From assembly GCF_009914755.1 (NCBI RefSeq), contig NC_060926.1: a stretch of 64,000 bases of DNA; one strand, written 5' to 3'. The DNA is from the human T2T-CHM13v2.0 reference genome, Homo sapiens. Shown here piece by piece: positions 1 through 43,186 of this stretch. Made by a program: the position numbers and the translations under genes. Below the pieces are notes generated by a model. That model made no database searches and had not been told where the DNA came from. It was given only the letters and a program-made list of their open reading frames with translations. Each line of letters opens with the position of its first letter. The stretch's first letter is position 1.

Positions 1-3000
1 ACAGTGTACAGGCTCCAGAAACCCTGCTGTAGAAACCCTACAGTGTACAGGCCAGCCGCCACATCAGAGAATAATCTGCTCCAAAGTAGAAATAGTGCCC
101 AGAGTGAGAAACCCTGCTCTAGAAACCCTACAGTGTACAGGCCAGCCGCCACATCAGAGAATAATCTGCTCCAAAATAGAAATAGTGCCCAGAGTGAGAA
201 ACACTGCTCTAGAAACCCTACAGTGTACAGGCTCCACAAACCCTGCTCTAGAAACCCTACAGGGTACAGGCCAGCCGCCACATCAGAGAAAAATCTGCTC
301 CAAATAGAAATAGTGCCCAGAGTGAGAAACCCTGCTCTAGAAACCCTACATTGTACAGGCCAGCCGCCACATGAGAGAATAATCTGCTCCAAAATAGAAA
401 TAGTGCCCAGAGTGAGAAACCCTGCTCCAGAAACCCTACAGTGTACAGGCCAGCCGCCACATCAGAGAATAATCTGCTCCAAATAGAAATAGTGGCCAGA
501 GTGAGAAACCCTGCTCTACAAACCGTACAGTGTACAGGCCAGCCGCCACATCAGAGAATAATCTGCTCCAAACTAGAAATAGTGCCCAGAGTGAGAAACC
601 CTGCTCTAGAAACCCTACAGTGTATAGGCCAGCCGCCACATCAGAGAATAATCTGCTCCAAATAGAAATAGTGCCCAGAGCGAGAAACCCTGCTCTAGAA
701 ACCCTACAGTGTACAGGCCAGCCGCCACATCAGAGAATAATCTGCTCCAAATAGAAATAGTGCCCAGAGTGAGAAACCCTGCTCTAGAAACCCTACAGTG
801 TACAGGTCAGCCGCCACATCAGAGAATAATCTGCTCCAAATAGAAATAGTGCCCAGAGTGAGAAACCCTGCTCTAGAAACCCTACAGTATACAGGCCAGT
901 TGCCACATCAGAGAATAGTCTGCTCCAAAATATAAATAGTGCCCAGAGTGAGAAACACTGGTCTAGAAATCCTACAGTGTACAGGCTCCAGAAACCCTGA
1001 TCTAGAAACCCTACAGTGTACAGGCCAGCCGCCACATCAGAGAATAATCTGCTCCAAATAGAAATAGTGCCCAGAGTGAGAAACAGTGCTTTAGAAAACC
1101 TACAGTGTACAGGCCAGCCGCCACATCAGAGAATAATCTGCTCCAAATAGAAATAGTGCCCAGAGTGAGAAACCCTGCTCTAGAAACCTTGCAGTGTACA
1201 GGCCAGCCGCCACATCGGAGAATAATCTGCTCCAAATAGAAATAGTGCCCAGAGTGAGAAACCCTGCTCTAGAAACCCCACAGTGTACAGGCCAGCCGCC
1301 ACATCAGAGAATAATCTACTCCAAAATAGAAATAGTGCCCAGAGTGAGAAACCCTGCTCTAGAAACCCTATAGTGTACAGGCCAGCCGCCACATCAGAGA
1401 AAAATCTGCTCCAAATAGAAATAGTGCCCAGAGTGAGAAACCCTGCTCTAGAAACCCTACAGTGTACAGGCCAGCCGCCACATCAAGGAATAATCTGCTC
1501 CACATAGAAATAGTGCCCAGAGTGAGAAACCCTTCTCTAGAAACCCTACAGTATACACGCCAGCCGCCACATCAGAGAATAATCTGCTCCAAATAGAAAT
1601 AGTGCCCAGAGTGAGATACCCTGCTCTAGAAACCTTACAGTGTACAGGCCAGCCGTCACATGAGAGAATAATCTGCTCCAAATAGAAATAGTGCCCAGAG
1701 TGAGAAACCCTGCTCTAGAAACCCTACAGTGTATACGCTCCAGAAACCCTGGTCTAGAAACCCTACAGTGTACAGGTCAGCCGCCACATGATAGAATAAT
1801 CTGCTCCAAATAGAAATAGTGCCGAGAGTGAGAAACCCTGCTCTAGAAACCCTACAGTGTACAGGCCAGATGCCACATCAGAGAATAATCTGATCCAAAC
1901 TAGAAATAGTGCCCAGAGTGAGAAAACCTGCTCTAGGAACCCTACAGTATACAGGCTCCAGAAAACCTACTCTAGAAACCCTACAGTGTACAGGCCAGCC
2001 GCCACATCAGAGAATAATCTGCTCCAAACTAGAAATAGTGCCCAGAGTGAGAAACCCTGCTCTAGAAACCCTATAGTGTACAGGCCAGCCACCACATGAG
2101 AGAATAATCTGCTCCAAATAGAAATAGTGCCCAGAGTGAGTAACCCTGCCCTAGAAACCCTACAGTGTACAGGCCAGAAGCCACATCAGAGAATAACCTG
2201 CTCCAAATACAAATAGTGCCCAGAGTGAAAAACCCTGCTGTAGAAACCCTACAGTGTACAGGCCAGCCGCCACATCAGAGAACAATCAGCTCCAAATAGA
2301 AATAGTGCCCAGAGTGAGAAACCCTGCTCTAGAAACCCTACAGTGTACAGACCAGCCGCCACATCAGAGAATAATCTGCTCCAAATAGAAATAGCGCCCA
2401 GAGTGAGAAACCCTGCTCTAGAAACCCTACAGTGTACAGGCCAGCCACCACATCAGAGAATAATCTGCTCCAAATAGAAATAGTGCCCAGAGTGAGAAAC
2501 CCTGCTCTAGAAACCCTACAGTGTACAGTCCAGCCGCCACATCAGAGAATAATCTGCTCCAAAATAGAAATAGTGCGCAGAGTGAGAAACCATGCTCTAG
2601 AAACCCTACAGTGCACAGGCTCCAGAAACGCTGCTCTAGAAACCCTACAGTATACAGGCCAGCCGCCACATCAGAGAATAATCTGCTCCAAATAGAAATA
2701 GTGCCCAGAGTGAGAAACCCTGCTCTAGAAACCCTACAGTGTACAGGCCAGCCGCCACATCAGAGAATAATCTGCTCCAAATACAAATAGTGCCCAGAGT
2801 GAGAAACCCTGCTCTAGAAACCTTGCAGTGTACAGGCCAGCCGCCACATCAGAGAATAATCTGCTCCAAATAGAAATAGTGCCCAGAGTGAGAAACCCTG
2901 CTCTAGAAACCCTACAGTGTACAGGCTCCAGAAACCCTGCTCTAGAAACACTACAGTGTACAGGCCAGCCGCCACATCAGAGAATAATCTGCTCCAAACG

Positions 3001-6000
3001 AGAAATAGTGCCCAGAGTGAGAAACCCTGCTCTAGAAACCCTATAGTGTACAGGCCAGCCACCACATCAGAGAGTAATCTGCTCCAAATAGAAATAGTGC
3101 CCAGAGTGAGAAACCCTGCTCTAGAAACCCTACAGTGTACAGGCCAGCCGCCACATCAGAGAATAATCTGCTCCAAATAGAAATAGTGGCCACAGCGAGA
3201 AACCATGCTCTAGAAAGCCTACAGTGTAGAGGCCAGCCGCTACATCAGACAATAATCTGCTCCAAACTGGAAATAGTGCCCAGAGTGAGAAACCCTGCTC
3301 TAGAAAGCCTACAGTGTACAGGCCAGCCGACACATCAGAGAATAATCTGCTCCGAATAGAAATAGTTCCCAGAGTGAGAAACCCTGCTCTAGAAACCCTA
3401 CAGTGTACAGGCCAGCCTCCACATCAGAGAATAATCTGCTCTAAACGAGAAATAGTGCCCAGAGTGAGAAACCCTGCTCTAGAAACCCTACAGTGTACAG
3501 GCTCCAGAAACCCTGCTCTAGAAACACTACAGTGTACAGGCCAGCCGCCACATCAGAGAATAATCTGCTCCAAACGAGAAATAGTGCCCAGAGTGAGAAA
3601 CCCTGCTCTAGAAACCCTATAGTGTACAGGCCAGCCACCACATCAGAGAGTAATCTGCTCCAAATAGAAATAGTGCCCAGAGTGAGAAACCCTGCTCTAG
3701 AAACCCTACAGTGTACAGGCCAGCCGCCACATCAGAGAATAATCTGCTCCAAATAGAAATAGTGGCCACAGCGAGAAACCATGCTCTAGAAAGCCTACAG
3801 TGTAGAGGCCAGCCGCTACATCAGACAATAATCTGCTCCAAACTGGAAATAGTGCCCAGAGTGAGAAACCCTGCTCTAGAAAGCCTACAGTGTACAGGCC
3901 AGCCGACACATCAGAGAATAATCTGCTCCGAATAGAAATAGTTCCCAGAGTGAGAAACCCTGCTCTAGAAACCCTACAGTGTACAGGCCAGCCTCCACAT
4001 CAGAGAATAATCTGCTCTAAACGAGAAATAGTGCCCAGAGTGAGAAACCCTGCTCTAGAAACCCTATAGTGTACAGGCCAGCCGCCACATGAGAGAATAA
4101 TCTGCTCCAAATAGGAATAGTGGCCAGAGCGAGAAACCCTGCTCTAGAAAGCCTACAGTGTACAGGCCAGCCGCCACATCAGAGAACAATCTGCTCCAAA
4201 TAGAAATAGTGCCCAGAGTGAGAAACCCTGCTCTAGAAACTCTGCAGTGTACAGGCCAGCCGCCACATCAGAGAATAATCTGCTCCAAATAGAAATAGTG
4301 GCCAGAGTGACAAACCCTGCTCTAGAAACCCTACAGTGTACAGGCTCCAGAAACCCTGCTGTAGAAACCCTACAGTGTACAGGCCAGCCGCCACATCAGA
4401 GAATAATCTGCTCCAAAATACAAATAGTGCCCAGAGTGAGAAACCCTCCTCTAGAAACCCTACAGTGTACAGGCTCCAGAAACCCTGCTCTAGAAAACCT
4501 ACAGTGTACAGGCCAACCGCCACATCAGAGAATAATCTGCTCCAAACTAGAAATAGTGCCCAGAGTGAGAAACCCTGCTCTAGAAACCCTACAGTGTACA
4601 GGCCATCCGCCACATCAGAGAATAATCTGCTCCAAATAGAAATAGTGCCCAGAGTGAGAAACCGTATTCTAGAAACCCTACAGTGTACAGGCCCGCCGCC
4701 ACATCAGAGAATAATCTGCTCCAAATAGAAATAGTGCCCAGAGTGAGAAACCCTGCTCTAGAAACCCTACAGTGTACAGGCCAGCCGCCACATCAGAGAA
4801 TAGTCTGCTCCAAATAGAAATAGTGCTCAGAGTGAGAAACCCTGCTCTAGAAACCCTACAGTGTACAGGCCAGCCGCCACATCAGAGAATAATCTGCTCC
4901 AAACTAGAAATAGTGCCCAAAGTGAGAAACCCTGCTCTAGAAACCCTACAGTGTACAGGCCAGCCGCCACATCAGAGAATAATCTGCTCCAAATACAAAT
5001 AGTGCCCAGTGTGAGAAACCCTGCTCTAGAAACCTTGCAGTGTACAGGCCAACCGCCACATCAGAGAGTAATCTGCTCCAAATAGAAATAGTGCCCAGAG
5101 TGAGAAACCCTGCTCTAGAAACCCCACAGTGTACAGGCCAGCCGCCACATCAGAGAATAATCTACTCCAAAATAGAAATAGTGCCCAGAGTGAGAAACCC
5201 TGCTCTAGAAACCGTACAGTGTACAGGCCAGCCGCCACATCAGAGAAAAATCTGCTCCAAATAGAAATAGTGCCCAGCGTGAGAAACCCTGCTCTAGAAA
5301 CCTTACAGTGTACACGCCAGCCACCACATCAGAGAATAATCTGCTCCAAATAGAAATAGTGCCCAGAGTGAGAAACCCTTCTCTAGAAACCCTACAGTAT
5401 ACAGGCCAGCCGCCACATCAGAGAATAATCTGCTCCAAATAGAAATAGTGCCCAGAGTGAGATACCCTGCTCTAGAAACCTTACAGTGTACAGGCCAGCC
5501 GCCACATCAGAGAATAATCTGCTCCAAATAGAAATAGTGCCCAGAGTGAGAAACCTTGCTCTAGAAACCCTACAGTGTACAGGCCAGCCGCCACATCAGA
5601 GAATAATCTGCTCCAAATAGGAATAGTGCCCAGAGTGAGAAACCGTATTCTAGAAACCCTACAGTGTACAGGCCAGCCGCCACATCAGAGAATAATCTGG
5701 TCCAAATAGAAATAGTGCCCAGAGTGAGAATCCCTGCTCTAGAAACCCTACAGTGTACGGGCCAGCCGCCACATCAGAGAATAATCTGCTCCAAATAGAA
5801 ATAGTGCTCAGAGTAAGAAACCCTGCTCTAGAAACCCTACAGTGTACAGACCAGCCGCCACATCAGAGAATAATCTGCTCCAAACTAGAAATAGTGCCCA
5901 AAGTGAGAAACCCTGCTCTAGAAACCCTACAGTGTACAGGCCAGCCGCCACATCAGAGAATAATCTGCTCCAAATACAAATAGTGCCCAGTGTGAGAAAC

Positions 6001-9000
6001 CCTGCTCTAGAAACCTTGCAGTGTACAGGCCAGCCGCCACATCAGAGAGTAAACTGCTCCAAATAGAAATAGTGCCCAGAGTGAGAAACCCTGCTCTAGA
6101 AACCCCACAGTGTACAGGCCAGCCGCCACATCAGAGAATAATCTACTCCAAAATAGAAATAGTGCCCAGAGTGAGAAACCCTGCTCTAGAAACCGTACAG
6201 TGTACAGGCCAGCCGCCACATCAGAGAATAATCTGCTCCAAAATACAAATAGTGCCCAGAGTGAGAAACCCTCCTCTAGAAACCCTACAGTGTACAGGCT
6301 CCAGAAACCCTGCTCTAGAAACCCTACAGTGTACAGGCCAGCCGCCACATCAGAGAATAATCTGCTCCAAAACAGAAATAGTGCCCAGAGTGAGAAACTC
6401 CGCTCTGGAAACCCTACAGTGTACACGCCAGCCGCCACATCAGAGAATAATCTGCTCCAAATAGAAATAGTGTTCAGAGTGAGAAACCCTGCTCTAGAAA
6501 CCCTGCAGTATACAGGCCAGTCGCCATATCAGAGAATAATGTGCTCCAAATAGAAGTAGTGCCCAGAGTGAGATACCCTTCTCTAGAAGCCCTACATTGT
6601 ACAGGCCAGCCGCCACATCAGAGAATAATCTGCTCCAAATAGAAATAGTGCCCAGAGTGAGAAACCCTGCTCTAGAAACCGTACAGTGTACAGGCCAGCC
6701 GCCACATCAGAGAATAATCTGCTCCAAAATAGAAATAGTGCCCAGAGTGACAAACCCTCCTCTAGAAACCCTACAGTGTACAGGCTCCAGAAACCCTGCT
6801 CTAGAAACCCTAAAGTGTACAGGCCAGCCGCCACATCAGAGAATAATCTGCTCCAAACTAGAAATAGTGCCCAGAGTGAGAAACCCTGCTCTAGAAACCC
6901 TACAGTGTATAGGCCAGCCGCCACATCAGAGAATAATCTGCTCCAAATAGAAATAGTGCCCAGAGTGAGAAACCGTATTCTAGAAACCCTGCAGTGTACA
7001 GGCCAGCCGCCACATCAGAGAATAATCTGCTCCAAATAGAAATAGTGCCCAGAGTGAGAAACCCTGGTCTAGAAACCCTACGGTGTACAGGCCAGCCGCC
7101 ACATCAGAGAATAATCTGCTCCAAATAGAAATAGTGCTCAGAGTGAGAAACCCTGCTCTAGAAACCCTACAGTGTACAGGCCAGCCGCCACATCAGAGAA
7201 TAATCTGCTCCAAACTAGAAATAGTGCCCAGAGTGAGAAACTCTGCTCTAGAAACCCTACAGTGTACAGGTCAGCCACCACATCAGAGAATAATCTGCTC
7301 CAAACTAGAAATAGTGCCCAGAGTTAGAAACTCTGCTCTGGAAACCCTATAGTGTACAGGCTCCAGAAACCCTGCTCTAGAAACCCTACAGTGTACAGGC
7401 CAGCCGCCACATCAGAGAATAATCTGCTCCAAATAGAAATAGTGCCCAGAGTGAGAAACCCTGCTCTAGAAACCCTACAGTGTACAGGCCAGCCAACACG
7501 TCAGAGAATAATCTGCTCCAAATAGAAATAATGCCCAGGGTGAGAAACCTTGCTCTAGAAACCCTACAGTGTACAGGCCAGCCGGCACATCAGAGAATAA
7601 TCTGCTCCAAATAGAAATAGTGCTCAGAGTGAGAAACGCTGCTCTAGAAACCCTACAGTGTACAGGCCAGCCGCCACATCAGAGAATAATCTGCTCCAAA
7701 TTAGAAATAGTGCCCAGAGTGAGAAACCCTGCTCTAGAAACCCTACAGTGTACAGGCCAGCCGCCACATCAGAGAATAATCTACTCCAAATAGAAATAGT
7801 GCCCAGAGTGAGAAACCCTGCTCTAGAAACCGTACAGTGTACAGGCCAGCCGCCACATCAGAGAATAATCTGCTCCAAAATACAAATAGTGCCCAGAGTG
7901 AGAAACCCTCCTCTAGAAACCCTACAGTGTACAGGCTCCAGAAACCCTGCTCTAGAAAACCTACAGTGTACAGGCCAACCGCCACATCAGAGAATAATCT
8001 GCTCCAAACTAGAAATAGTGCCCAGAGTGAGAAACCCTGCTCTAGAAACCCTACAGTGTACAGGCCATCCGCCACATCAGAGAATAATCTGCTCCAAATA
8101 GAAATAGTGCCCAGAGTGAGAAACCGTATTCTAGAAACCCTACAGTGTACAGGCCAGCCGCCACATCAGAGAATAATCTGCTCCAAATAGAAATAGTGCC
8201 CAGAGTGAGAAACCCTGCTCTAGAAACCCTACAGTGTACAGGCCAGCCGCCACATCAGAGAATAGTCTGCTCCAAATAGAAATAGTGCTCAGAGTGAGAA
8301 ACCCTGCTCTAGAAACCCTACAGTGTACAGGCCAGCCGCCACATCAGAGAATAATCTGCTCCAAACTAGAAATAGTGCCCAAAGTGAGAAACCCTGCTCT
8401 AGAAACCCTACAGTGTACAGGCCAGCCGCCACATCGGAGAATAATCTGCTCCAAATACAAATAGTGCCCAGTGTGAGAAACCCTGCTCTAGAAACCTTGC
8501 AGTGTACAGGCCAACCGCCACATCAGAGAGTAATCTGCTCCAAATAGAAATAGTGCCCAGAGTGAGAAACCCTGCTCTAGAAACCCCACAGTGTACAGGC
8601 CAGCCGCCACATCAGAGAATAATCTACTCCAAAATAGAAATAGTGCCCAGACTGAGAAACCCTGCTCTAGAAACCGTACAGTGTACAGGCCAGCCGCCAC
8701 AACAGAGAAAAATCTGCTCCAAATAGAAATAGTGCCCAGCGTGAGAAACCCTGCTCTAGAAACCTTACAGTGTACACGCCAGCCACCACATCAGAGAATA
8801 ATCTGCTCCAAATAGAAATAGTGCCCAGAGTGAGAAACCCTTCTCTAGAAACCCTACAGTATACAGGCCAGCCGCCACATCAGAGAATAATCTGCTCCAA
8901 ATAGAAATAGTGCCCAGAGTGAGATACCCTGCTCTAGAAACCTTACAGTGTACAGGCCAGCCGCCACATCAGAGAATAATCTGCTCCAAATAGAAATAGT

Positions 9001-12000
9001 GCCCAGAGTGAGAAACCCTGCTCTAGAAACCCTACAGTGTACAGGCCAGCCGCCACATCAGAGAATAATCTGCTCCAAATAGGAATAGTGCCCAGAGTGA
9101 GAAACCGTATTCTAGAAACCCTACAGTGTACAGGCCAGCCGCCACATCAGAGAATAATCTGGTCCAAATAGAAATAGTGCCCAGAGTGAGAATCCCTGCC
9201 CTAGAAACCCTACAGTGTACAGGCCAGCCGCCACATCAGAGAATAATCTGCTCCAAATAGAAATAGTGCTCAGAGTGAGAAACCCTGCTCTAGAAACCCT
9301 ACAGTGTACAGACCAGCCGCCACATCAGAGAATAATCTGCTCCAAACTAGAAATAGTGCCCAAAGTGAGAAACCCTGCTCTAGAAACCCTGCAGTGTACA
9401 GGCCAGCCGCCACATCATAGAATAATCTGCTCCAAATACAAATAGTGCCCAGTGTGAGAAACCCTGCTCTAGAAACCTTGCAGTGTACAGGCCAGCCGCC
9501 ACATCAGAGAGTAAACTGCTCCAAATAGAAATAGTGCCCAGAGTGAGAAACCCTGCTCTAGAAACCCCACAGTGTACAGGCCAGCCGCCACATCAGAGAA
9601 TAATCTACTCCAAAATAGAAATAGTGCCCAGAGTGAGAAACCCTGCTCTAGAAACCGTACAGTGTACAGGCCAGCCGCCACATCAGAGAATAATCTGCTC
9701 CAAAATACAAATAGTGCCCAGAGTGAGAAACCCTCCTCTAGAAACCCTACAGTGTACAGGCTCCAGAAACCCTGCTCTAGAAACCCTACAGTGTACAGGC
9801 CAGCCGCCACATCAGAGAATAATCTGCTCCAAAACAGAAATAGTGCCCAGAGTGAGAAACTCCGCTCTGGAAACCCTACAGTGTACAGGCCAGCCGCCAC
9901 ATCAGAGAATAATCTGCTCCAAATAGAAATAGTGTCCAGAGTGAGAAACCCTGCTCTAGAAACCCTGCAGTATACAGGCCAGTCGCCATATCAGAGAATA
10001 ATGTGCTCCAAATAGAAGTAGTGCCCAGAGTGAGATACCCTTCTCTAGAAGCCCTACATTGTACAGGCCAGCCGCCACATCAGAGAATAATCTGCTCCAA
10101 ATAGAAATAGTGCCCAGAGTGAGAAACCCTGCTCTAGAAACCGTACAGTGTACAGGCCAGCCGGCACATCAGAGAATAATCTGCTCTAAAATAGAAATAG
10201 TGCCCAGAGTGACAAACCCTCCTCTAGAAACCCTACAGTGTACAGGCTCCAGAAACCCTGCTCTAGAAACCCTAAAGTGTACAGGCCAGCCGCCACATCA
10301 GAGAATAATCTGCTCCAAACTAGAAATAGTGCCCAGAGTGAGAAACCCTGCTCTAGAAACCCTACAGTGTATAGGCCAGCCGCCACATCAGAGAATAATC
10401 TGCTCCAAATAGAAATAGTGCCCAGAGTGAGAAACCGTATTCTAGAAACCCTGCAGTGTACAGGCCAGCCGCCACATCAGAGAATAATCTGCTCCAAATA
10501 GAAATAGTGCCCAGAGTGAGAAACCCTGGTCTAGAAACCCTACAGTGTACAGGCCAGCCGCCACATCAGAGAATAATCTGCTCCAAATAGAAATAGTGCT
10601 CAGAGTGAGAAACCCTGCTCTAGAAACCCTACAGTGTACAGGCCAGCCGCCACATCAGAGAATAATCTGCTCCAAACTAGAAATAGTGCCCAGAGTGAGA
10701 AACTCTGCTCTAGAAACCCTACAGTGTACAGGTCAGCCACCACATCAGAGAATAATCTGCTCCAAACTAGAAATAGTGCCCAGAGTTAGAAACTCTGCTC
10801 TGGAAACCCTATAGTGTACAGGCTCCAGAAACCCTGCTCTAGAAACCCTACATTGTACAGGCCAGCCGCCACATCAGAGAATAATCTGCTCCAAATAGAA
10901 ATAGTGCCCAGAGTGAGAAACCCTGCTCTAGAAACCCTACAGTGTACAGGCCAGCCACCACGTCAGAGAATAATCTGCTCCAAATAGAAATAATGCCCAG
11001 GGTGAGAAACCTTGCTCTAGAAACCCTACAGTGTACAGGCCAGCCGCCACATCAGAGAATAATCTGCTCCAAATAGAAATAGTGCTCAGAGTGAGAAACG
11101 CTGCTCTAGAAACCCTACAGTGTACAGGCCAGCCGCCACATCAGAGAATAATCTGCTCCAAACTAGAAATAGTGCCCAGAGTGAGAAACCCTGCTCTAGA
11201 AACCCGACAGTGTACAGGCTAGCCGCCACATCAGAGAATAATGTGCTCCAAATAGAAATAGTGCCCAGAGTGAGAAACACTGCTCTGGAAACCCTACAGT
11301 GTACAGGCCAGCCGCCACATCAGAGAATAATCTGCTCCAAAATAGAAATAGTGCCCAGAGTGACAAACCCTCCTCTAGAAACCCTACAGTGTACAGGCTC
11401 CAGAAACCCTGCTCTAGAAACCCTAAAGTGTACAGGCCAGGCGCCACATCAGAGAATAATCTGCTCCAAACTAGAAATAGTGCCCAGACTGAGAAACCCT
11501 GCTCTAGAAACCCTAAAGTTTACAGGCCAGCCGCCACATCAGAGAATAATCTGCTCCAAACTAGAAATAGTGCCCAGAATGAGAAACCCTGCTCTGGAAA
11601 CCCTACAGTGTATAGGCCAGCCGCCACATCAGAGAATAATCTGCTCCAAATAGAAATAGTGTCCAGAGTGAGAAACCGTATTCTAGAAACCCTACAGTGT
11701 ACAGGCCAGCCGCCACATCAGAGAATAATCTGCTCCAAATGGAAATAGTGCCCAGAGTGAGAAACCCTGCTCTAGAAACCCTACAGTGTACAGGCCAGCC
11801 GCCACATCAGAGAATAATGTGCTCCAAATAGAAATAGTGCTCAGAGTGAGAAACCCTGCTCTAGAAACCCTACAGTGTACAGGCCAGCCGCCACATCAGA
11901 GAATAATCTGCTCCAAATACAAATAGTGCCCAGTGTGAGATACACTGCTCTAGAAACCCTACAGTGTACAGGCCAGTCGCCACATCAGAGAATAATCTGC

Positions 12001-15000
12001 TCCAAATAGAAATAGTGTCCAGAGTGAGAAACCCTGCTCTAGAAACGCTACAGTGTACAAGCCAGCCGCCACATCAGAGAATGATCTGCTCCAAACTAGA
12101 AATAATGCCCAGAGTGAGAAACCCTGCTCTGGAAACCCTACAGTGTACAGGCCAGCCGCCACATCACAGAATAATGTGCTCCAAAGAGAAATAGTGCCCA
12201 GCGTGAGAAACCCTGCTCTAGAAACCCTACAGTGTACAGGCCAGCCGCCACATCAGAGAATAATCTGCTCCAAAGAGAAATAGTGCCCAGAGTGAGAAAC
12301 CCTGCTCTAGAAACCCTACGGTGTACAGGCCAGCCGCCACATGAGAGAATAATCTGCTCCAAATGGAAATAGTGTCCAGAGTGAGAAACCCTGCTCTAGA
12401 AACCCTACAGTGTACAGGCCAGCCGCCACATCAGAGAATAATCTGCTCCAAACTAGAAATAGTGCCCAGAGTGAGAAACTCTGCTCTAGAAACCCTACAG
12501 TGTACAGGTCAGCCACCACATCAGAGAATAATCTGCTCCAAACTAGAAATAGTGCCCAGAGTGAGAAACTCTGCTCTGGAAACCCTATAGTGTACAGGCT
12601 CCAGAAACCCTGCTCTAGAAACCCTACAGTGTACAGGCCAGCCGCCACATCAGAGAATAATCTGCTCCAAACTACAAATAGTGCCCAGAGTGAGAAACCC
12701 TGCTCTAGAAACCCTACAGTGTACAGGTCAGCCGCCACATGAGAGAATAACCTGCTCCAAACAGAAATAGTGCCCAGAGTGAGAAACCCTGCTCTAGAAA
12801 CCCTATAGTGTACAGGCCAGCCGCCACATCAGAGAATGATCTGCTCCATATAGAAATAGTGCCCAGAGTGAGAAACCCTGCTCTAGAAACCCTACAGTGT
12901 ACAGGCCAGCCGCCACATCAGAGAATAATCTACTCCAAAATAGAAATAGTGCCCCGAGTGAGAAACCCTGCTCTGGAAACCCTACAGTGTACAGGCCAGC
13001 CGCCACATCAGAGAATAATCTGCTCTAAATAGAAATAGAGCCCAGAGTGAGAAACCCTGCTTTAGAAACCCTACAGTGTATAGGCCATCCGCCACATCAG
13101 AGAATAATCTGCTCCAAATAGAAATAGTGCCCAGAGTGAGAAACCCTGCTGTAGAAACCCTACAGTGTACAGGCCAGCTGCCACATCAGAGAATAATCTG
13201 CTCCAAATAGAAATAGTGCCCAGAGTGAGAAACCCTGCTCTAGAAACCCTACAGTGTGCAGGCCAGCCGCCACATCAGAGAATAATCTGCTCCAAAATAG
13301 AAATAGTGCCCAGAGTGAGAAACTCTGCTCTGGAAACCCTACAGTGTACAGGCTCCCGAAACCCTTCTCTAGGAACCCTACAGTTTACAGGCCAGCCGCC
13401 ACATCAGAGAATAATGTGCTCCACATAGAAATAGTGCCCACAGTGAGAAACCCTTCTCTAGAAACCCCACAGTGTACAGGCCAGCCGCCACATCAGAGAA
13501 TAATGCTCCAAATAGAAATAGTGCCCAGAGTGAGAAACCCTGCTCTAGAAACCCTACAGTGTACAGGCCAGCCGCCACGTCAGAGAACAATCTGCTCCAA
13601 AATAGAAATAGTGCCCACAGTGAGAAACCCTGCTCTAGAAACCCTACAGTGTACAGGCCAGCCGCCACATCAGAGAATAATCTGCTCCAAATAGAAATAG
13701 TGCCCAGAGTGAGAAACCCTGCTCTAGAAACCCTACAGTGTACAGGCCAGCCGCCACGTAAGAGAACAATCTGCTCCAAAATAGAAATAGTGCCCAGAGT
13801 GAGAAACCCTGCTCTACAAACCCTACAGTGTACAGGCCAGCCGCCACATCAGAGAATAATCTGCTCCAAACTAGAAATAGTGCCCAGAGTGAGAAACTCT
13901 GCTCTGGAAACCCTACAGTGTACAGGCTCCAGAAACCCTGCTCTAGAAACCCTACAGTGTACAGGCCAGCCGCCACATCAGAGAATAATCTGCTCCAAAC
14001 TACAAATAGTGCCCAGAGTGAGAAACCCTGCTCTAGAAACCCTATAGTGTACAGGCCAGCCGCCACATCAGAGAATCATCTGCTCGAAATAGAAATAGTG
14101 CCCAGAGTGAGAAACCCTGCTCTAGAAACCCTACAGTGTACAGGCCAGCCGCCACATCAGAGAATAATCTACTCCAAATAGAAATAGTGCCCAGAGTGAG
14201 AAACCCTGCTCTAGAAACCGTACAGTGTACAGGCCAGCCGCCACATCAGAGAATAATCTGCTCCAAAATACAAATAGTGCCCAGAGTGAGAAACCCTCCT
14301 CTAGGAACCCTACAGTGTACAGGCTCCAGAAACCCTGCTCTAGAAACCCTACAGTGTACAGGCCAGCCGCCACATCAGAGAATAATCTGCTCCAAAACAG
14401 AAATAGTGCCCAGAGTGAGAAACTCTGCTCTGGAAACCCTACAGTGTACAGGCCAGCCGCCACATCAGAGAATAATCTGCTACAAATAGAAATAGTGTCC
14501 AGAGTGAGAAACCCTGCTCTAGAAACCCTGCAGTATACAGGCCAGTCGCCATATCAGAGAATAATGTGCTCCAAATAGAAGTAGTGCCCAGAGTGAGATA
14601 CCCTTCTCTAGAAGCCCTACATTGTACAGGCCAGCCGCCACATCAGAGAATAATCTGCTCCAAATAGAAATAGTGCCCAGAGTGAGAAACCCTGCTCTAG
14701 AAACCGTACAGTGTACAGGCCAGCCGCCACATCAGAGAATAATCTGCTCCAAAGTAGAAATAGTGCCCAGAGTGACAAACCCTCCTCTAGAAACCCTACA
14801 GTGTACAGGCTCCAGAAACCCTGCTCTAGAAACCCTAAAGTGTACAGGCCAGCCGCCACATCAGAGAATAATCTGCTCCAAAGTAGAAATAGTGCCCAGA
14901 GAGAGAAACCCTGCCCTAGAAACCCTACAGTGTACAGGCCAGCCGCCACATCAGAGAAGAATGTGCTCCAAATGGAAATAGTGCCCAGAGTGAGAAACCC

Positions 15001-18000
15001 TGCTCTAGAAACCCTACAGTGTACACGCCAGCCACCACATCAGAGAATAATCTGCTCCAAATAGAAATAGTGCCCAGAGTGAGAAACCCTTCTCTAGAAA
15101 CCCTACAGTATACAGGCCAGCCGCCACATCAGAGAATAATCTGCTCCAAATAGAAATAGTGCCCAGAGTGAGATACCCTGCTCTAGAAACCTTACAGTGT
15201 ACAGGCCAGCCGCCACATCAGAGAATAATCTGCTCCAAATAGAAATAGTGCCCAGAGTGAGAAACCCTGCTCTAGAAACCCTACAGTGTACAGGCCAGCC
15301 GCCACATCAGAGAATAATCTGCTCCAAATAGAAATAGTGCCCAGAGTGAGAAACCGTATTCTAGAAACCCTACAGTGTACAGGGCAGCCGCCACATCAGA
15401 GAATAATCTGGTCCAAATAGAAATAGTGCCCAGAGTGAGAAACCCTGCTCTAGAAACCCTACAGTGTACAGGCTCCAGAAACCCTGCTCTAGAAACCCTA
15501 CAGTGTACAGGCCAGCCGCCACATCAGAGAATAATCTGCTCCAAAACAGAAATAGTGCCCAGAGTGAGAAACTCTGCTCTGGAAACCCTACAGTGTACAG
15601 GCCAGCCGCCACATCAGAGAATAATCTGCTCCAAATAGAAATAGTGTCCAGAGTGAGAAACCCTGCTCTAGAAACCCTGCAGTATACAGGCCAGTCGCCA
15701 TATCAGAGAATAATGTGCTCCAAATAGAAGTAGTGCCCAGAGTGAGATACCCTTCTCTAGAAGCCCTACATTGTACAGGACAGCCGCCACATCAGAGAAT
15801 AATCTGCTCCAAATGGAAATAGTGCCCAGAGTGAGAAACCCTGCTCTAGAAACCCTACAGTGTACAGGCCAGCCGCCACATCAGAGAATAATGTGCTCCA
15901 AATAGAAATAGTGCTCAGAGTGAGAAACCCTGCTCTAGAAACCCTACAGTGTACAGGCCAGCCGCCACATCAGAGAATAATCTGCCCCAAATACAAATAG
16001 TGCCCAGTGTGAGATACACTGCTCTAGAAACCCTAGAGTGTACAGGCCAGTCGCCACATCAGAGAATAATCTGCTCCAAATAGAAATAGTGTCCATAGTG
16101 AGAAACCCTGCTCTAGAAACGCTACACTGTACAAGCCAGCCGCCACATCAGAGAATGATCTGCTGCAAACTAGAAATAGTGCCCAGAGTGAGAAACCCTG
16201 CTCTAGAAACCCTACAGTGTACAGGCCAGCCGCCACATCAGAGAATAATGTGCTCCAAAGAGAAATAGTGCCCAGCGTGAGAAACCCTGCTCTAGAAACC
16301 CTACAGTGTACAGGCCAGCCGCCACATCAGAGAATAATCGGCTCCAAAGAGAAATAGTGCCCAGAGTGAGAAACCCTGCTCTAGAAACCCTACGGTGTAC
16401 AGGCCAGCCGCCACATGAGAGAATAATCTGCTCCAAATGGAAATAGTGTCCAGAGTGAGAAACCCTGCTCTAGAAACCCTACAGTGTACAGGCCAGCCGC
16501 CACATCAGAGAATAATCTGCTCCAAACTAGAAATAGTGCCCAGAGTGAGAAACTCTGCTCTAGAAACCCTACAGTGTACAGGTCAGCCACCACATCAGAG
16601 AATAATCTGCTCCAAATAGAAATAGTGCCCAGAGTGAGAAACCCTGCTCTAGAAACCCTACAGTGTACAGGCCAGCCGCCACATCAGAGAATAATCTGCT
16701 CCAAATAGAAATAGTGCCCAGAGTGAGAAACCGTATTCTAGAAACCCTACAGTGTACAGGGCAGCCGCCACATCAGAGAATAATCTGGTCCAAATAGAAA
16801 TAGTGCCCAGAGTGGGAAACCCTGCTCTAGAAACCCTACAGTGTACAGGCTCCAGAAACCCTGCTCTAGAAACCCTACAGTGTACAGGCCAGCCGCCACA
16901 TCAGAGAATAATCTGCTCCAAAACAGAAATAGTGCCCAGAGTGAGAAACTCTGCTCTGGAAACCCTACAGTGTACAGGCCAGCCGCCACATCAGAGAATA
17001 ATCTGCTCCAAATAGAAATAGTGTCCAGAGTGAGAAACCCTGCTCTAGAAACCCTGCAGTATACAGGCCAGTCGCCATATCAGAGAATAATGTGCTCCAA
17101 ATAGAAGTAGTGCCCAGAGTGAGATACCCTTCTCTAGAAGCCCTACATTGTACAGGACAGCCGCCACATCAGAGAATAATCTGCTCCAAATGGAAATAGT
17201 GCCCAGAGTGAGAAACCCTGCTCTAGAAACCCTACAGTGTACAGGCCAGCCGCCACATCAGAGAATAATGTGCTCCAAATAGAAATAGTGCTCAGAGTGA
17301 GAAACCCTGCTCTAGAAACCCTACAGTGTACAGGCCAGCCGCCACATCAGAGAATAATCTGCCCCAAATACAAATAGTGCCCAGTGTGAGATACACTGCT
17401 CTAGAAACCCTAGAGTGTACAGGCCAGTCGCCACATCAGAGAATAATCTGCTCCAAATAGAAATAGTGTCCAGAGTGAGAAACCCTGCTCTAGAAACGCT
17501 ACAGTGTACAAGCCAGCCGCCACATCAGAGAATGATCTGCTGCAAACTAGAAATAGTGCCCAGAGTGAGAAACCCTGCTCTAGAAACCCTACAGTGTACA
17601 GGCCAGCCGCCACATCAGAGAATAATGTGCTCCAAAGAGAAATAGTGCCCAGCGTGAGAAACCCTGCTCTAGAAACCCTACAGTGTACAGGCCAGCCGCC
17701 ACATCAGAGAATAATCGGCTCCAAAGAGAAATAGTGCCCAGAGTGAGAAACCCTGCTCTAGAAACCCTACAGTGTACAGGCCAGCCGCCACATGAGAGAA
17801 TAATCTGCTCCAAATGGAAATAGTGTCCAGAGTGAGAAACCCTGCTCTAGAAACCCTACAGTGTACAGGCCAGCCGCCACATCAGAGAATAATCTGCTCC
17901 AAACTAGAAATAGTGCCCAGAGTGAGAAACTCTGCTCTAGAAACCCTACAGTGTACAGGTCAGCCACCACATCAGAGAATAATCTGCTCCAAACTAGAAA

Positions 18001-20486
18001 TAGTGCCCAGAGTGAGAAAGTCTGCTCTGGAAACCCTATAGTGTACAGGCTCCAGAAACCCTGCTCTAGAAACCCTACAGTGTACAGGCCAGCTGCCACA
18101 TCAGGGAATAATCTGCTCCAAACTACAAATAGTGCCCAGAGTGAGAAACCCTGCTCTAGAAACCCTACAGTGTACAGGTCAGCCGCCACATGAGAGAATA
18201 ACCTGCTCCAAATAGAAATAGTGCCCAGAGTGAGAAACCCTGCTCTAGAAACCCTATAGTGTACAGGCCAGCTGCCACATCAGAGAATGATCTGCTCCAT
18301 ATAGAAATAGTGCCCAGAGTGAGAAACCCTGCTCTAGAAACCCTACAGTGTACAGGCCAGCCGCCACATCAGAGAATAATCTACTCCAAAATAGAAATAG
18401 TGCCCCGAGTGAGAAACCCTGCTCTGGAAACCCTACAGTGTACAGGCCAGCCGCCACATCAGAGAATAATCTGCTCTAAATAGAAATAGAGCCCAGAGTG
18501 AGAAACCCTGCTTTAGAAACCCTACAGTGTATAGGCCATCCGCCACATCAGAGAATAATCTGCTCCAAATAGAAATAGTGCCCAGAGTGAGAAACCCTGC
18601 TCTAGAAACCCTACAGTGTGCAGGCCAGCCGCCACATCAGAGAATAATCTGCTCCAAAATAGAAATAGTGCCCAGAGTGAGAAACTCTGCTCTGGAAACC
18701 CTACAGTGTACAGGCTCCCGAAACCCTTCTCTAGGAACCCTACAGTTTACAGGCCAGCCGCCACATCAGAGAATAATGTGCTCCAAATAGAAATAGTGCC
18801 CAGAGTGAGAAACCCTTCTCTAGAAACCCCACAGTGTACAGGCCAGCCGCCACATCAGAGAATAATCTGCTCCAAATAGAAATAGTGCCCAGAGTGAGAA
18901 ACCCTGCTGTAGAAACCCTACAGTGTACAGGCCAGCCGCCACGTCAGAGAACAATCTGCTCCAAAATAGAAATAGTGCCCACAGTGAGAAACCCTGCTCT
19001 AGAAACCCTACAGTGTACAGGCCAGCCACCACATCAGAGAATAATCTGCTCCAAATAGAAATAGTGCCCAGAGTGAGAAACCCTGCTCTAGAAACCCTAC
19101 AGTGTACAGGCCAGCCGCCACGTCAGAGAACAATCTGCTCCAAAATAGAAATAGTGCCCACAGTGAGAAACCCTGCTCTAGAAACCCTACAGTGTACAGG
19201 CCAGCTGCCACATCAGAGAATAATCTGCTCCAAAATAGAAATTGTGCCCAGAGTGAGAAACCCTGCTCTAGAAACCCTACAGTGTACAGGCCAGCCGCCA
19301 CGTCAGAGAACAATCTGCTCCAAAATAGAAATAGTGCCCACAGTGAGAAACCCTGCTCTAGAAACCCTACCGTGTACAGGCCAGCTGCCACATCAGAGAA
19401 TAATCTGCTCCAAAATAGAAATTGTGCCCAGAGTGAGAAACCCTGCTCTAGAAATCCTACAGTGTACAGGCTCCTGAAACCCTGCTCTAGAAACCCTACA
19501 GTGTACACGTCAGCCGCCACATCAGAGAATAATTTGCTCCAAACTAGAAATAGTGCCCAGGGTGAGAAACCCTGCTCTAGAAATCCTACAGTGTACAGGC
19601 TCCCGAAACCCTGCTCTAGAAAGCCTAGAGTGTACAGGCCAGCTGCCACATCAGAGAATAATCTGCTCCAAAATAGAAATAGTGCCCAGAGTGAGAAACC
19701 TTTCTCTAGAAATCCTACAGTGTACAGGCTCCAGAAACCGTGCTCTAGAAACCCTACAGTGTACAGGCCAGCCACCACATCAGAGAATAATCTGCTCCAA
19801 AATTGAAATAGTGCCCAGATTGATAAACCTTGTTCTAGAAATCCTACAGTGTACAGGCTCCAGAAACCCTGCTCTAGAAACCCTACAGTGTGCAGGCCAG
19901 CCACCACATCAGAGAATAATCTGCTCCAAAATAGAAATAGTGCCCAGAGTGAGAAGCCTTGCTCTAGAAATCCTACAGTGTACAGGCTCCAGAAACCCTG
20001 CTCTAGAAACCCTACTGTGTACAGGCCAGCCGCCACATCAGAGAATAATCTGCTCCAAACTAGAAATAGTGTCCAGAGTGAGAAACCTTGCTCTAGAAAT
20101 CCTACAGTGTACAGGCTCCAGAAACCCTGCTCTAGAAACCCTACAGTGTACAGGCCAGCCACCACATCAGAGAATAATCTGCTCCAAAATAGAAATAGTG
20201 CCCCAGAGTCAGAAACCTTGCTCTAGAAATCCCACAGTGTACAGTCTCCAGAAACCCTGCTCTAGAAACCCTACAGTGTACAGGCCAGCTGCCACATCAG
20301 AGAATAATCTGTTCCAAAATAGAAATAGTGCCCAGAGTGAGAAACCCTGCTCTAGAAACCGTACAGTGTACAGGCTCCAGAAACCCTGCTCTAGAAACCC
20401 TACAGTGTACAGGCCAGCTGCCACATCAGAGAATAATCTGCTCCAAAATGGAAATAGTGCCCAGGGTGAGAAACCCTGCTCTAGAT
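1..20486 (+). repeat. Large tandem array (macrosatellite/VNTR) of 89/90-bp monomers plus 39-bp submonomers, derived from the MER20 3' end and its target site
   Basis: Monomer gtgtacaggccagccgccacatcagagaataatctgctccaaatagaaatagtgcccagagtgagaaaccctgctctagaaaccctaca (89 bp; the 90-bp variant has one extra base after ctccaaa) repeats continuously. It aligns by eye to the recalled MER20 3' end (ATCCTACAATGCACAGGACAGCCCCCACAACAAAGAATTATCCGGCCCAAAATGTCAATAGTGCCGAGGTTGAGAAACCCTG). The array ends at gagaaaccctg-ctctagat (20468-20486). Confidence 0.93.
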
Positions 20487-20589
20487 TGACATCCTCAGGG
20501 GACCCAGGCTGGAGGGCTCTCCCGACACCACATTTTCTTAGAGGTTTTCCTACCTGCGTGAGGTGCACAGCCCCCTTATTACTCTTGGC

Positions 20590-22286: not shown

Positions 22287-23143
<857 letters not shown>

Positions 23144-23173
23144 TAATACTGATTTCTAAGTACTATCCTGAAA

Positions 23174-23192
23174 TGACCAGCAGAGGGCAGCA
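23174..23192 (+). promoter_or_regulatory. CTCF-like binding motif
   Basis: tgaccagcagagggcagca closely fits the CTCF core CCASYAGRKGGCRS; binding not shown. Confidence 0.6.
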
Positions 23193-23307
23193 GTACATTA
23201 AAGTGCTGAAGGAATGACGCTGGACCCTTAGGCTTCATGGTATGTTCTGGGCAAAGGCAGAGCCTGGTCCCTGGGGTGTTGGCATCAATGGACTCAGGAG
23301 GAATTTA

Positions 23308-28278: not shown

Positions 28279-28535
28279 TTCATAAAATCTACAATAATCA
28301 TAGAGATGCACTGCCATAACAGATGCGGTAGGAAAGGGCCCAGTGAGCCTACGGCATTCAGGATTATTTGTTTCTGAACTGCATGGTGCTCCTTCCAATG
28401 TTGGCTTTGCAGACATTTATTCCTTGATTTAACCCACCATGACTAGGACCACCATCACTCACTGATTCACCAGAAACCGGAAGATTGTCTTACTTGTTTT
28501 TATTAATCTTTCTTAAAGATATGTATGGCTCACAT

Positions 28536-29465
28536 TTATTTTATTTTTTGAGACAGAGTTTCGCTCTTGTCGCCCAGGCTGGAGTGCAGTGGTGCAATCT
28601 CGGCTCACTGAAACTTCTGCTTGCTGGGTTCAAGTGATTCTCCTGCCTCAGCCTCCCGAGTATGTATCTGGGATTACAAGTATGTACCACCACACTCGGC
28701 TAATTTTTTTTTTCTTTTTCTTTTCTTTTTTCTTTTTTTTTTGAGACAGAGTCTTGCTCTGTCGCCCAGGCTGGAGTGCAGTAGCGTGATCTTGGCTCGC
28801 TGCAACCTCCACCTCCTGAGTTCAAACGATTCTCCTGCCTCAGCCTCCTGAGTAGCTGGGACTACAGGTGTGTGCCACCACTCCTGGCTAATTTTTTTTT
28901 TTTTTGAGATGGAGTCTCGCTCTGCCACCCAGGCTGGAGTGCTGTGTCGCAATCTGGGCTCACTGCAAGCTCCACCTCCTGGGTTCACGCCATTCTTCTG
29001 CCTCAGCCTCCCGAGTAGCTGGGACTGTAGGCGCCCGCCACCACGCCCAGCTAATTTTTTGTATTTTTAGTAGAGACGGGGTTTCACCGTGTTAGCCAGG
29101 ATGGTCTCCATCTCCTGACCTCGTGATCCACCTGCCTCGGCCTCCCAGAGTGCTGGGATTACAGGCGTGAGCCACCGCTCCCGGTCCTCCTGGCTAATTT
29201 TTGTAGTTTTAGTAGAGACAACGTTTCACCGTGTTCGCCAGGCTGGTCTTGAACTCATGACCTCAGGTGGTCTGTCCGCCTTGGCCTCCCAAAGTGCTAG
29301 GATAACAGGCATGAGCCATCGCACTGGGCCTAATTCTGTATTTTTAGTAGAGATGGGGTTTCACCATGTTGGTCAAGCTGGTCTCAAACTCCTGACCTCA
29401 GGTGATCCACACGCCTTGGCCTCCCAAAGTGCTGGGATTACAGGCATGAGCCAAGGCGTCCAGCC
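28536..29465 (-). mobile_element. Triple nested Alu (AluY inside AluS inside AluS)
   Basis: Arm order R1,R2,[R3,L3],L2,L1; ctcctggctaattttt duplicated at 28881-28896 and 29187-29202 around the inner AluY. Confidence 0.88.

Positions 29466-40663: not shown

Positions 40664-43186
<2,523 letters not shown>

What the first reader, a model, noticed from the sequence alone, without database searches (positions are those of the whole stretch)
1..20486. Over 20 kb satellite built from a MER20 transposon terminus plus its target site
Seen: roughly 200 near-identical 89/90-bp monomers, each ending ...gtgagaaaccctg|ctctagaa. The array stops exactly at gagaaaccctg|ctctagat before unique DNA. Established: MER20 is a hAT-Charlie MITE ending ...GTTGAGAAACCCTG, and Charlie elements prefer an 8-bp NTCTAGAN target. 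Inference: the right terminal ~80 bp plus the TSD of one ancient MER20 insertion was amplified into a satellite, and 20479-20486 is the original right TSD. I have an unverified recollection that a large MER20-derived array was noted in a human tandem-repeat survey, so the array itself may not be new.
Basis: partly seen in the sequence, partly recalled or inferred. Interest (0 to 1): 0.8.

Follow-up and report, generated by a model that had tools for sequence, protein, structure and literature searches.

The report
Known MER20-derived tandem array, 2q37.1
About 330 head-to-tail copies of the last ~81-83 bases of one old MER20 transposon, plus its 8-base insertion scar, form a 27-kb block between COPS7B and NPPC; the array has been in print since 2008 and only the scar detail is a small addition.

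Summary
Window 1-20486 is the right three quarters of a 27,047-bp tandem array that begins 6,560 bp left of the window. The whole array has 329 units: 282 of 87-91 bp and 47 of 39 bp. It ends ...GAGAAACCCTG|CTCTAGAT before unique DNA.

A profile built from 27 dispersed genomic copies matches the monomer and the founder element at the array's left end. That founder is a full-length MER20, split by a LINE-1 insertion and abutted by an Alu. Its left target-site duplication reconstructs as CTCTAGAA. This is the 8-mer at 275 of 329 unit junctions and matches the right-end CTCTAGAT at 7 of 8 bases. The founder's own internal sequence at that place (CTGATAAACAT) fits worse.

The array itself is already published. 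Warburton et al. 2008 describe it as 89-bp repeats equal to MER20 128-219, with a full-length MER20 at the start. A 2026 pangenome preprint lists it as a structurally variable hAT-Charlie cluster. I found no sign of function: no coding frame, CpG depletion, and no conserved sub-motif.

Verdict: a known, probably neutral, transposon-derived VNTR. TSD inclusion is a minor refinement. Low interest.

The parts
1..20478 (+). In-window part of the tandem array: 248 units start here (214 of 87-91 bp, 34 of 39 bp). Each unit is CTCTAGAA plus the MER20 3' ~81 bp ending GAGAAACCCTG. The array continues 6,560 bp to the left of the window (L032:3440-10000). The parts outside the window are listed with locus coordinates in the full report: founder MER20 5' and 3' pieces, LINE-1 insert, Alu, and left TSD remnants.
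   Evidence: TRF; segmentation; profile hits (E 1e-21 for the last units); left extension
20479..20486 (+). CTCTAGAT: right target-site duplication of the founder MER20. It matches the reconstructed left TSD CTCTAGAA at 7 of 8 bases. Unique DNA follows.
4349..12599 (+). Largest internal block duplication: 4349-9135 and 7811-12599 are 97.8% identical at a shift of 3,462 bp.
   Evidence: blastn self-comparison
14814..18050 (+). Second in-window block duplication: 14814-16672 and 16191-18050 are 98.2% identical at a shift of 1,377 bp.
19346..20478 (+). Right-end stretch organised as a 129-bp dimer (39-bp short unit + 90-bp unit), about 8.8 copies.
   Evidence: TRF; unit pattern

Best explanation
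This is a single-locus, non-coding tandem array (a VNTR or small satellite) that grew out of one MER20 hAT-Charlie MITE. Origin (inferred): a segment of about 91 bp was duplicated in tandem. It ran from MER20 position ~133-135 (AAACATCCTACA...) through the element's 3' end (...GAGAAACCCTG) and on to base 6-8 of the right target-site duplication (CTCTAGAA). The junction has 1-3 bp of A-microhomology. Early changes (inferred): loss of 2 bp (AT) gave the 89-bp unit, and one extra A in an A-run gave the 90-bp unit. Two internal deletions of 27 and 23 bp gave the 39-bp unit. Growth (shown as pattern, mechanism inferred): the array then expanded to ~330 units by unequal exchange or replication slippage in multi-unit blocks. 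It most likely has no function and evolves neutrally. From monomer divergence, using substitution rates that I recall, I place the main amplification in the primate era, roughly 10-40 Myr ago. The later block duplications would be around 8-12 Myr old. Both dates are inference.
For: Family membership. 39 dispersed matches (of 69 candidates) at 75-87% identity lie on many chromosomes. 30 of 30 fetched loci align to the founder fragment, and 26 of 30 best HSPs start at least 12 bp upstream of where the monomer begins. A 217-position profile was built from 27 of the 30 copies; L011, L012 and L025 were dropped because their 5' halves did not align. It hits the founder at E 2.1e-40 (positions 44-217), the monomers at E 1e-21 and 4e-18, and the 5' piece at E 2.3e-8 (positions 1-68).

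Local origin. The monomer consensus and the founder's 3' end are each 64/79 identical to the family consensus but 77/79 identical to each other. They therefore share 14 of their 15 departures from the family.

TSD inclusion. The family's flanks have consensus CTCTAGAN on both sides, and 8 of 30 copies keep at least 6 of 8 left-right matches. The founder's left flank reconstructs to CTCTAGAA, the right end is CTCTAGAT, and the junction 8-mer is CTCTAGAA in 275 of 329 units. The founder's internal sequence at that place is CTGATAAACAT. Edit distance to the observed junction is 4 for the TSD model, 7-8 for the internal-only model and 7 for a longer-flank model.

Growth by blocks. A 4.8-kb block is repeated at a shift of 3,462 bp (97.8% identity), 2.2 kb at 1,904 bp (97.6%), 2.0 kb at 3,364 bp (98.3%) and 1.86 kb at 1,377 bp (98.2%). 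The 39-mer equals the 89-mer minus 27+23 bp with 0 mismatches, and 38 of 47 short units are followed by a 90-mer, which fits a single origin spread by block exchange.

Neutrality. Divergence is star-like with no dependence on lag and no edge gradient. Variation is spread over all positions and is highest at C and G, with no invariant sub-motif. CpG observed/expected is 0.22. The period is not a multiple of 3, and stop triplets (TAG, TAA, TGA) can be seen in the monomer text; no ORF scan of the array was run. No Rfam family lies in the array and no gene is annotated there (hub table).
Against: Three of the eight left-TSD bases are inferred across the Alu insertion. The right-end copy differs at base 8 (T versus A). 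The TSD model still needs a 2-bp deletion, and 0 of 329 units keep the ancestral ACATCC form, so no intermediate survives. RepeatMasker, as reported by Warburton 2008, aligns the monomers to MER20 128-219 with no flank. nhmmer can also run an ungapped, low-posterior alignment of CTAGAAAC onto the family's CTAAACAT. The founder's 3' end is the first array unit and may have been homogenised with the array, which weakens both the 'late origin' argument and the dating. Neutrality is argued from the absence of signals in sequence alone. No chromatin, expression or population data were available here.
Confidence: 0.85

Rival explanations
1. Internal-only expansion, as printed in 2008. The unit is purely MER20 positions 128-219, the junction is 219|128, and the CTCTAGAA at each junction is a mutated CTGATAAA. 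The likeness to the TSD would then be coincidence.
For: Warburton 2008 reports the RepeatMasker placement as 128-219. An ungapped alignment of the monomer start to the family consensus gives 5 of 8 matches. nhmmer extends one hit back to position 117, with posteriors of 4-7.
Against: Edit distance to the observed junction is 7-8, against 4 for the TSD model. It would require CTGATAAA to mutate by chance into the exact left-TSD 8-mer. It also leaves the 7-base identity between the monomer start and the DNA after the last unit as coincidence.
Confidence: 0.06
2. Longer first unit through flank microhomology. The first duplication joined the ACATCCT 11-17 bp right of the element to the ACATCCT inside MER20, giving a 93-bp unit that carried the whole TSD plus TTG. 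This later shrank to 89 bp.
For: A 7-base identity (ACATCCT) exists between the right flank at 20489-20495 and founder positions ~135-141.
Against: Edit distance to the observed junction is 7. The flank-founder local score is reached by 739 of 2000 shuffles. nhmmer finds no profile hit in the flank.
Confidence: 0.04
3. Functional array. The ~330 MER20 3' modules act together as a copy-number-dependent chromatin or cis-regulatory element, for example a KZFP or heterochromatin target, an insulator or an enhancer cluster, for neighbouring genes.
For: The only support is context. The locus is reported as copy-number variable (CNV '+' in Warburton's Table 2; 'high-complexity spot'). From my own recollection, not from a call, MER20 copies elsewhere have been reported as regulatory elements.
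Against: There is no conserved sub-motif among the 282 long units. Divergence is star-like and neutral-looking, with CpG decay. The RefSeq silencer at 23163-23252 lies outside the array (hub table). No data here show binding or expression.
Confidence: 0.05

Closest known systems
The 2q37.1 'Mer20' array of Warburton et al. 2008 (BMC Genomics 9:533, PMC2588610; passages read)
   Same: It is the same object. Their entry is hg18 chr2:232,395,638-232,422,714, 27,076 bp of 89-bp repeats ~80% similar to MER20, with a full-length MER20 at the start in the same orientation, read as tandem expansion of the element's last 89 bp. My figures are 27,047 bp, 81% identity to a family consensus, and a founder at the left end.
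   Different: They place the unit at MER20 128-219 and do not use the words 'target site' or 'TSD'. Here the unit is ~81-83 bp of MER20 plus 6-8 bp of the TSD. They list a 1.5-kb higher-order unit x18.7. I find irregular block duplications (shifts 1,377, 1,459, 1,904, 3,364 and 3,462 bp), not one regular period. The founder is 'full length' only when read across a 1,093-bp LINE-1 insert.
[quoted passage not shown]
   Same: Same locus, named as a tandem-repeat-driven high-complexity spot among 320 haploid assemblies.
   Different: A one-line mention only.
LTR12B-derived 125-bp array at Yq11.222 (Warburton 2008, passage)
   Same: A sub-segment of one transposable element expanded into a large tandem array that RepeatMasker shows as a dense block of diverged TE fragments.
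   Different: The source there is an LTR that already carries three internal tandem copies. Here the source is the terminus of a DNA-transposon MITE with no internal repeat, and the unit crosses the element's boundary into the TSD.
MITE- and TE-derived satellites in other eukaryotes (review PMC9659126; search listing and abstract only)
   Same: The general route from a transposable element to a tandem repeat.
   Different: I did not read its cases, so I cannot say whether a unit containing the TSD is described there.

Membership tests
MER20 (hAT-Charlie non-autonomous DNA transposon) derivative | Significant sequence homology to the family | tested here: met
   Profile of 27 dispersed genomic copies: founder E 2.1e-40, monomers E 1e-21 and 4.4e-18. 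Monomer consensus is 64/79 identical to the family consensus. Dfam itself was not available. The name MER20 comes from RepeatMasker as cited in Warburton 2008.
MER20 (hAT-Charlie non-autonomous DNA transposon) derivative | Terminal inverted repeats at the family's ends | tested here: met
   The family consensus starts CAGTGGTTCTCAAC and ends GTTGAGAAACCCTG. By my reading, the reverse complement of the 3' end matches the 5' end at 12 of 14 bases. The monomers keep only the 3' TIR.
MER20 (hAT-Charlie non-autonomous DNA transposon) derivative | 8-bp target-site duplication, preferred target NTCTAGAN | tested here: met
   In 30 dispersed copies the consensus is CTCTAGAN on both flanks, and 8 of 30 keep at least 6 of 8 left-right matches. 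Founder: CTCTAGAA (reconstructed) versus CTCTAGAT.
Tandem array / VNTR | Head-to-tail copies at one locus | tested here: met
   329 contiguous units with no spacer. All 306 genome-wide junction matches fall in this array.
Tandem array / VNTR | Copy number varies between haplotypes | not testable with these tools
   Literature only: CNV '+' and 'high-complexity spot'. hg18 (27,076 bp) and CHM13 (27,047 bp) are nearly equal in length.
Higher-order-repeat satellite (1.5-kb unit, Warburton Table 2) | One regular multi-monomer period along the array | tested here: not met
   Blocks at 97% identity or more repeat at shifts of 3,462, 1,904, 3,364, 1,377, 1,459, 574 and 982 bp in different parts of the array. 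Mean monomer distance is flat with lag.

The most novel reading that the evidence does not exclude
The array is a primate-specific, copy-number-variable cluster of ~330 MER20 3' modules that nucleates a chromatin state or binds a factor in proportion to its length, and so tunes neighbouring genes (COPS7B, NPPC, DIS3L2). A second, independent bold reading is that the unit boundary sits at the outer edge of the TSD because the first duplication arose from faulty repair at the transposase's staggered cut, not from a later random event.
Probability: 0.05. Interest if true: 0.55.

Novelty: already known. Interest (0 to 1): 0.2.

Why it matters
The case cleanly documents how a tandem array is born from a transposon end. 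The founder element, both of its TSDs and the array are all still readable at one locus. Because the unit crosses the element boundary, it pins the first duplication's breakpoints to within 3 bp. It also shows a small trap for annotation: RepeatMasker-style placement (128-219) hides the flank-derived 8-mer. Beyond that the locus is a known VNTR with no evidence of function, so it mainly serves as a marker for long-read and pangenome studies.

Tried and rejected
- Fuzzy-regex and Hamming segmentation mis-split units. The junction carries a 9-bp direct repeat (AGAAACCCT, 14 bp apart), which also explains TRF's 14-bp rows. I replaced these with a chained segmentation.
I replaced it with a blastn self-comparison.
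- Right flank as a decayed monomer or microhomology partner: the local score was reached by 739 of 2000 shuffles, and there was no nhmmer hit. Rejected as evidence.
- Pfam on three minus-strand ORFs of the 1.09-kb insert gave 0 families. The PDB sequence search then identified LINE-1 ORF2p.
- A position-specific conservation scan of the 282 long units found nothing that stands out.
- Rfam on the whole window found nothing in the array.
- Literature for further descriptions: MER20+tandem repeat (23 papers), MER20+2q37 (2), MER20+satellite+array (11), COPS7B+VNTR (1), MER20/VNTR/minisatellite terms, hAT-Charlie+MIR1471 (1). Among the rows listed in these searches, and judging from titles and abstracts for all papers but the two I opened, only Warburton 2008 and the 2026 preprint concern this array. 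Neither mentions the TSD in the passages I saw.
Full report
**What is there.**
The first 20,486 bases of the window are tandem repeats with periods of 89 and 90 bp. A 39-bp short form is interspersed, and a 129-bp (39+90) dimer dominates the last ~1.1 kb (TRF; sequence). The window starts inside the array. I fetched the 20 kb to its left from the same assembly (L032 = G000:C2:232304001-232314000, so L032 position minus 10000 gives the window coordinate). The first junction lies at L032:3440, which is 6,560 bp left of window base 1.

A chained segmentation of the whole array gives 27,047 bp. That is 329 units (168 of 89 bp, 110 of 90 bp, 2 of 88 bp, 1 of 87 bp, 1 of 91 bp and 47 of 39 bp) plus a terminal CTCTAGAT. 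Of these, 248 units start within the window: 214 long and 34 short. The unit starts with exactly CTCTAGAA in 275 of 329 cases and ends with exactly GAGAAACCCTG in 180 of 329.

Long units differ from each other by 6.0% on average and from their consensus by 3.1%. Eleven of 282 equal the consensus. The 36-nt junction motif, allowing up to 3 mismatches, occurs 306 times in the 3.1-Gb assembly, always on the forward strand and never in the reversed control. Exactly 306 such matches lie in this array. So this is a single-locus repeat.

**Is it MER20-derived?**
Dfam was not available, so I built the test from the genome itself. A search of the assembly with the last 224 bases of the array returned 39 scored matches (of 69 candidates) at 75-87% identity on many chromosomes. 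None was tandem.

All 30 fetched loci aligned to the 169-nt founder fragment at the array's left end. In 26 of 30 the best HSP began well upstream of the point where the monomer starts. MAFFT alignment of these copies with flanks shows a ~217-bp element with sharp ends, CAGTGGTTCTCAAC... and ...GTTGAGAAACCCTG. The two ends are inverted repeats of each other, matching at 12 of 14 bases by my reading.

I built a profile from 27 of the 30 copies; three were dropped because their 5' halves did not align. The profile hits as follows:

| Target | Profile positions | E-value |
|---|---|---|
| Founder 3' piece | 44-217 | 2.1e-40 |
| Array units | — | 1e-21 and 4.4e-18 |
| Segment 1.1 kb further left (5' piece) | 1-68 | 2.3e-8 |

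The eight bases on either side of the 30 copies have the consensus CTCTAGAN. Eight of 30 copies still keep at least 6 of 8 left-right matches. The name MER20 for this locus comes from RepeatMasker as reported by Warburton et al. 2008, and hAT-Charlie comes from the 2026 preprint.

**The founder and its scars (all left of the window, L032 coordinates).**
- **1794-1799:** CTCTAG, the left portion of the old left flank.
- **~1801-2108, minus strand:** an antisense Alu with a T-rich tail at its left edge. It is supported by two Metazoa_SRP partial hits, E 2e-12 and 6e-8, below the gathering score. The name Alu is recalled.
- **2109-2113:** TAGAA, the five bases of the left TSD that still abut the element.
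- **2114-2171:** MER20 5' piece, CAGTAGCTTTCAACC....
- **2172-3264, minus strand:** a 1,093-bp insert flanked by ATATTTGGAGAC (2160-2171) and ATATCTGGAGAC (3265-3276).
- **3277-3439:** MER20 3' piece, ending GAGAAACCCTG.
- **3440:** first array junction.

The insert has a T-run at its left edge. A minus-strand ORF in it matches residues 1144-1263 of human LINE-1 ORF2p (E 2.9e-17; Pfam gave nothing). It is therefore an antisense, 5'-truncated LINE-1 with a 12-bp TSD. This explains why the 2008 paper could call the MER20 'full length'.

If the Alu is removed, with either a 3-4-bp or a partly deleted 15-bp Alu TSD, the same pre-insertion sequence results: ...TTACTCTCTAGAA|CAGTAG. The left TSD is therefore CTCTAGAA and the right one, at window 20479-20486, is CTCTAGAT.

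**Does the unit include the TSD?**
At the place where monomers read CCCTG|CTCTAGAAACCCTACAGTG, the founder reads GGATG CTGATAAACATCCTACAAAG. I compared three models of the first junction with the observed one.

| Model | Edit distance to observed junction |
|---|---|
| Element end + TSD + MER20 from ~AAAC/AAC/AC | 4 |
| MER20 219\|128 only | 7-8 |
| Unit reaching 10 bp into the flank via an ACATCCT microhomology | 7 |

The other two are one 2-bp deletion.

The flank's ACATCCT is not significant: 739 of 2000 shuffles reach the same local score. The junction 8-mer equals the reconstructed left TSD and matches the first seven bases after the last unit. The refinement is that the right breakpoint can only be placed at TSD base 6, 7 or 8, because A/AA is shared by the two partners.

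No unit keeps the ancestral ACATCC (0 of 329). The 2-bp loss made a perfect 9-bp direct repeat (AGAAACCCT) 14 bp apart. This accounts for TRF's 14-bp rows and for my first faulty segmentations.

**How it grew.**
The monomer consensus and the founder's 3' end are each 64/79 identical to the family consensus, but 77/79 identical to each other. At the two differing columns the family has AT, the founder AA and the monomers GT. They therefore share 14 of 15 departures from the family. This ties the array to this very copy and suggests amplification long after insertion. One caution applies: the founder's 3' end is also the first unit and could have been homogenised.

The 39-bp unit is the 89-bp unit minus 27 and 23 bp, with no mismatch. 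In 38 of 47 cases it is followed by a 90-mer, as expected for one deletion variant spread by block exchange.

Self-comparison shows large internal duplications:
- 4.8 kb at a shift of 3,462 bp (97.8% identity)
- 2.2 kb at 1,904 bp (97.6%)
- 2.0 kb at 3,364 bp (98.3%)
- 1.86 kb at 1,377 bp (98.2%)
- several shorter ones

There is no single regular higher-order period, and monomer distance is flat with lag and along the array. Using recalled primate substitution rates of about 1e-9 per site per year, 3.1% to consensus suggests a main burst some tens of Myr ago. Blocks 1.7-2.6% apart suggest events roughly 8-12 Myr ago. The single CpG is intact in 248 of 282 long units. These dates are inference only.

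**Function.**
I found nothing that points to one.
- The period is not a multiple of three, and stop triplets can be seen in the monomer text. I did not run an ORF scan of the array.
- Rfam finds nothing in the array.
- No gene is annotated, and the RefSeq silencer lies 2.7 kb to the right (hub table).
- CpG observed/expected is 0.22.
- Variation among units is spread over all positions and is highest at C and G, with no protected sub-motif.

I commit to a neutral, transposon-derived VNTR that expands and contracts by unequal exchange. A chromatin or regulatory role is not excluded, but it has no support here.

**What is known.**
Warburton et al. 2008 (passages read) list this array twice. One entry is hg18 chr2:232,395,638-232,422,714, 27,076 bp with an 89-bp unit. 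The other is 28.1 kb with a 1.5-kb unit x18.7, CNV '+', 'Mer20'. They state that the repeats are ~80% similar to MER20 128-219, that a full-length MER20 in the same orientation begins the array, and that the array is a tandem expansion of the element's last 89 bp.

Their text contains neither 'target site' nor 'TSD'. [quoted passage not shown] My other searches turned up no further description among the rows they listed.

The array is thus already known. The inclusion of the TSD in the unit, the reconstruction of both TSDs across the Alu, the LINE-1 split of the founder and the block map are small additions. Supplements of the preprint could not be opened and might hold length data.

**Verdict.**
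Observation confirmed, interpretation supported, object already published. Low interest.

Noticed in passing
window 40687-42663: A 2-kb minisatellite of 86 copies of a 23-bp C/T-only unit (TCCCTCCTCTCTCCCTCCCTCCT) with 95% matches. It is a long polypyrimidine tract on the + strand.
   Followed up: no
window 22556-23006: (TTTC)n of about 75 copies directly abuts a minus-strand Metazoa_SRP hit above the gathering score (22859-23006), presumably an antisense Alu whose tail expanded. The RefSeq silencer at 23163-23252 lies just beyond.
   Followed up: partly
L001 (G000:C7:66.64 Mb) and L016 (G000:C23:132.34 Mb): Two of the dispersed MER20 copies share the same flanks on both sides in the alignment, so they are paralogous copies of one insertion carried by a duplication between chromosomes 7 and X, not independent insertions.
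   Followed up: no
window 20489-20495: ACATCCT, 11 bp right of the element end, repeats the founder's internal ACATCCT at the unit's left breakpoint. It is tempting as a microhomology but not significant (739 of 2000 shuffles).
   Followed up: yes
window 28535-29453: TRF reports 135-192-bp 'periods' made of Alu-like sequence (GAGACAGAGTCTCGCTCT...), which looks like adjacent or partly duplicated Alu copies rather than a true array.
   Followed up: no
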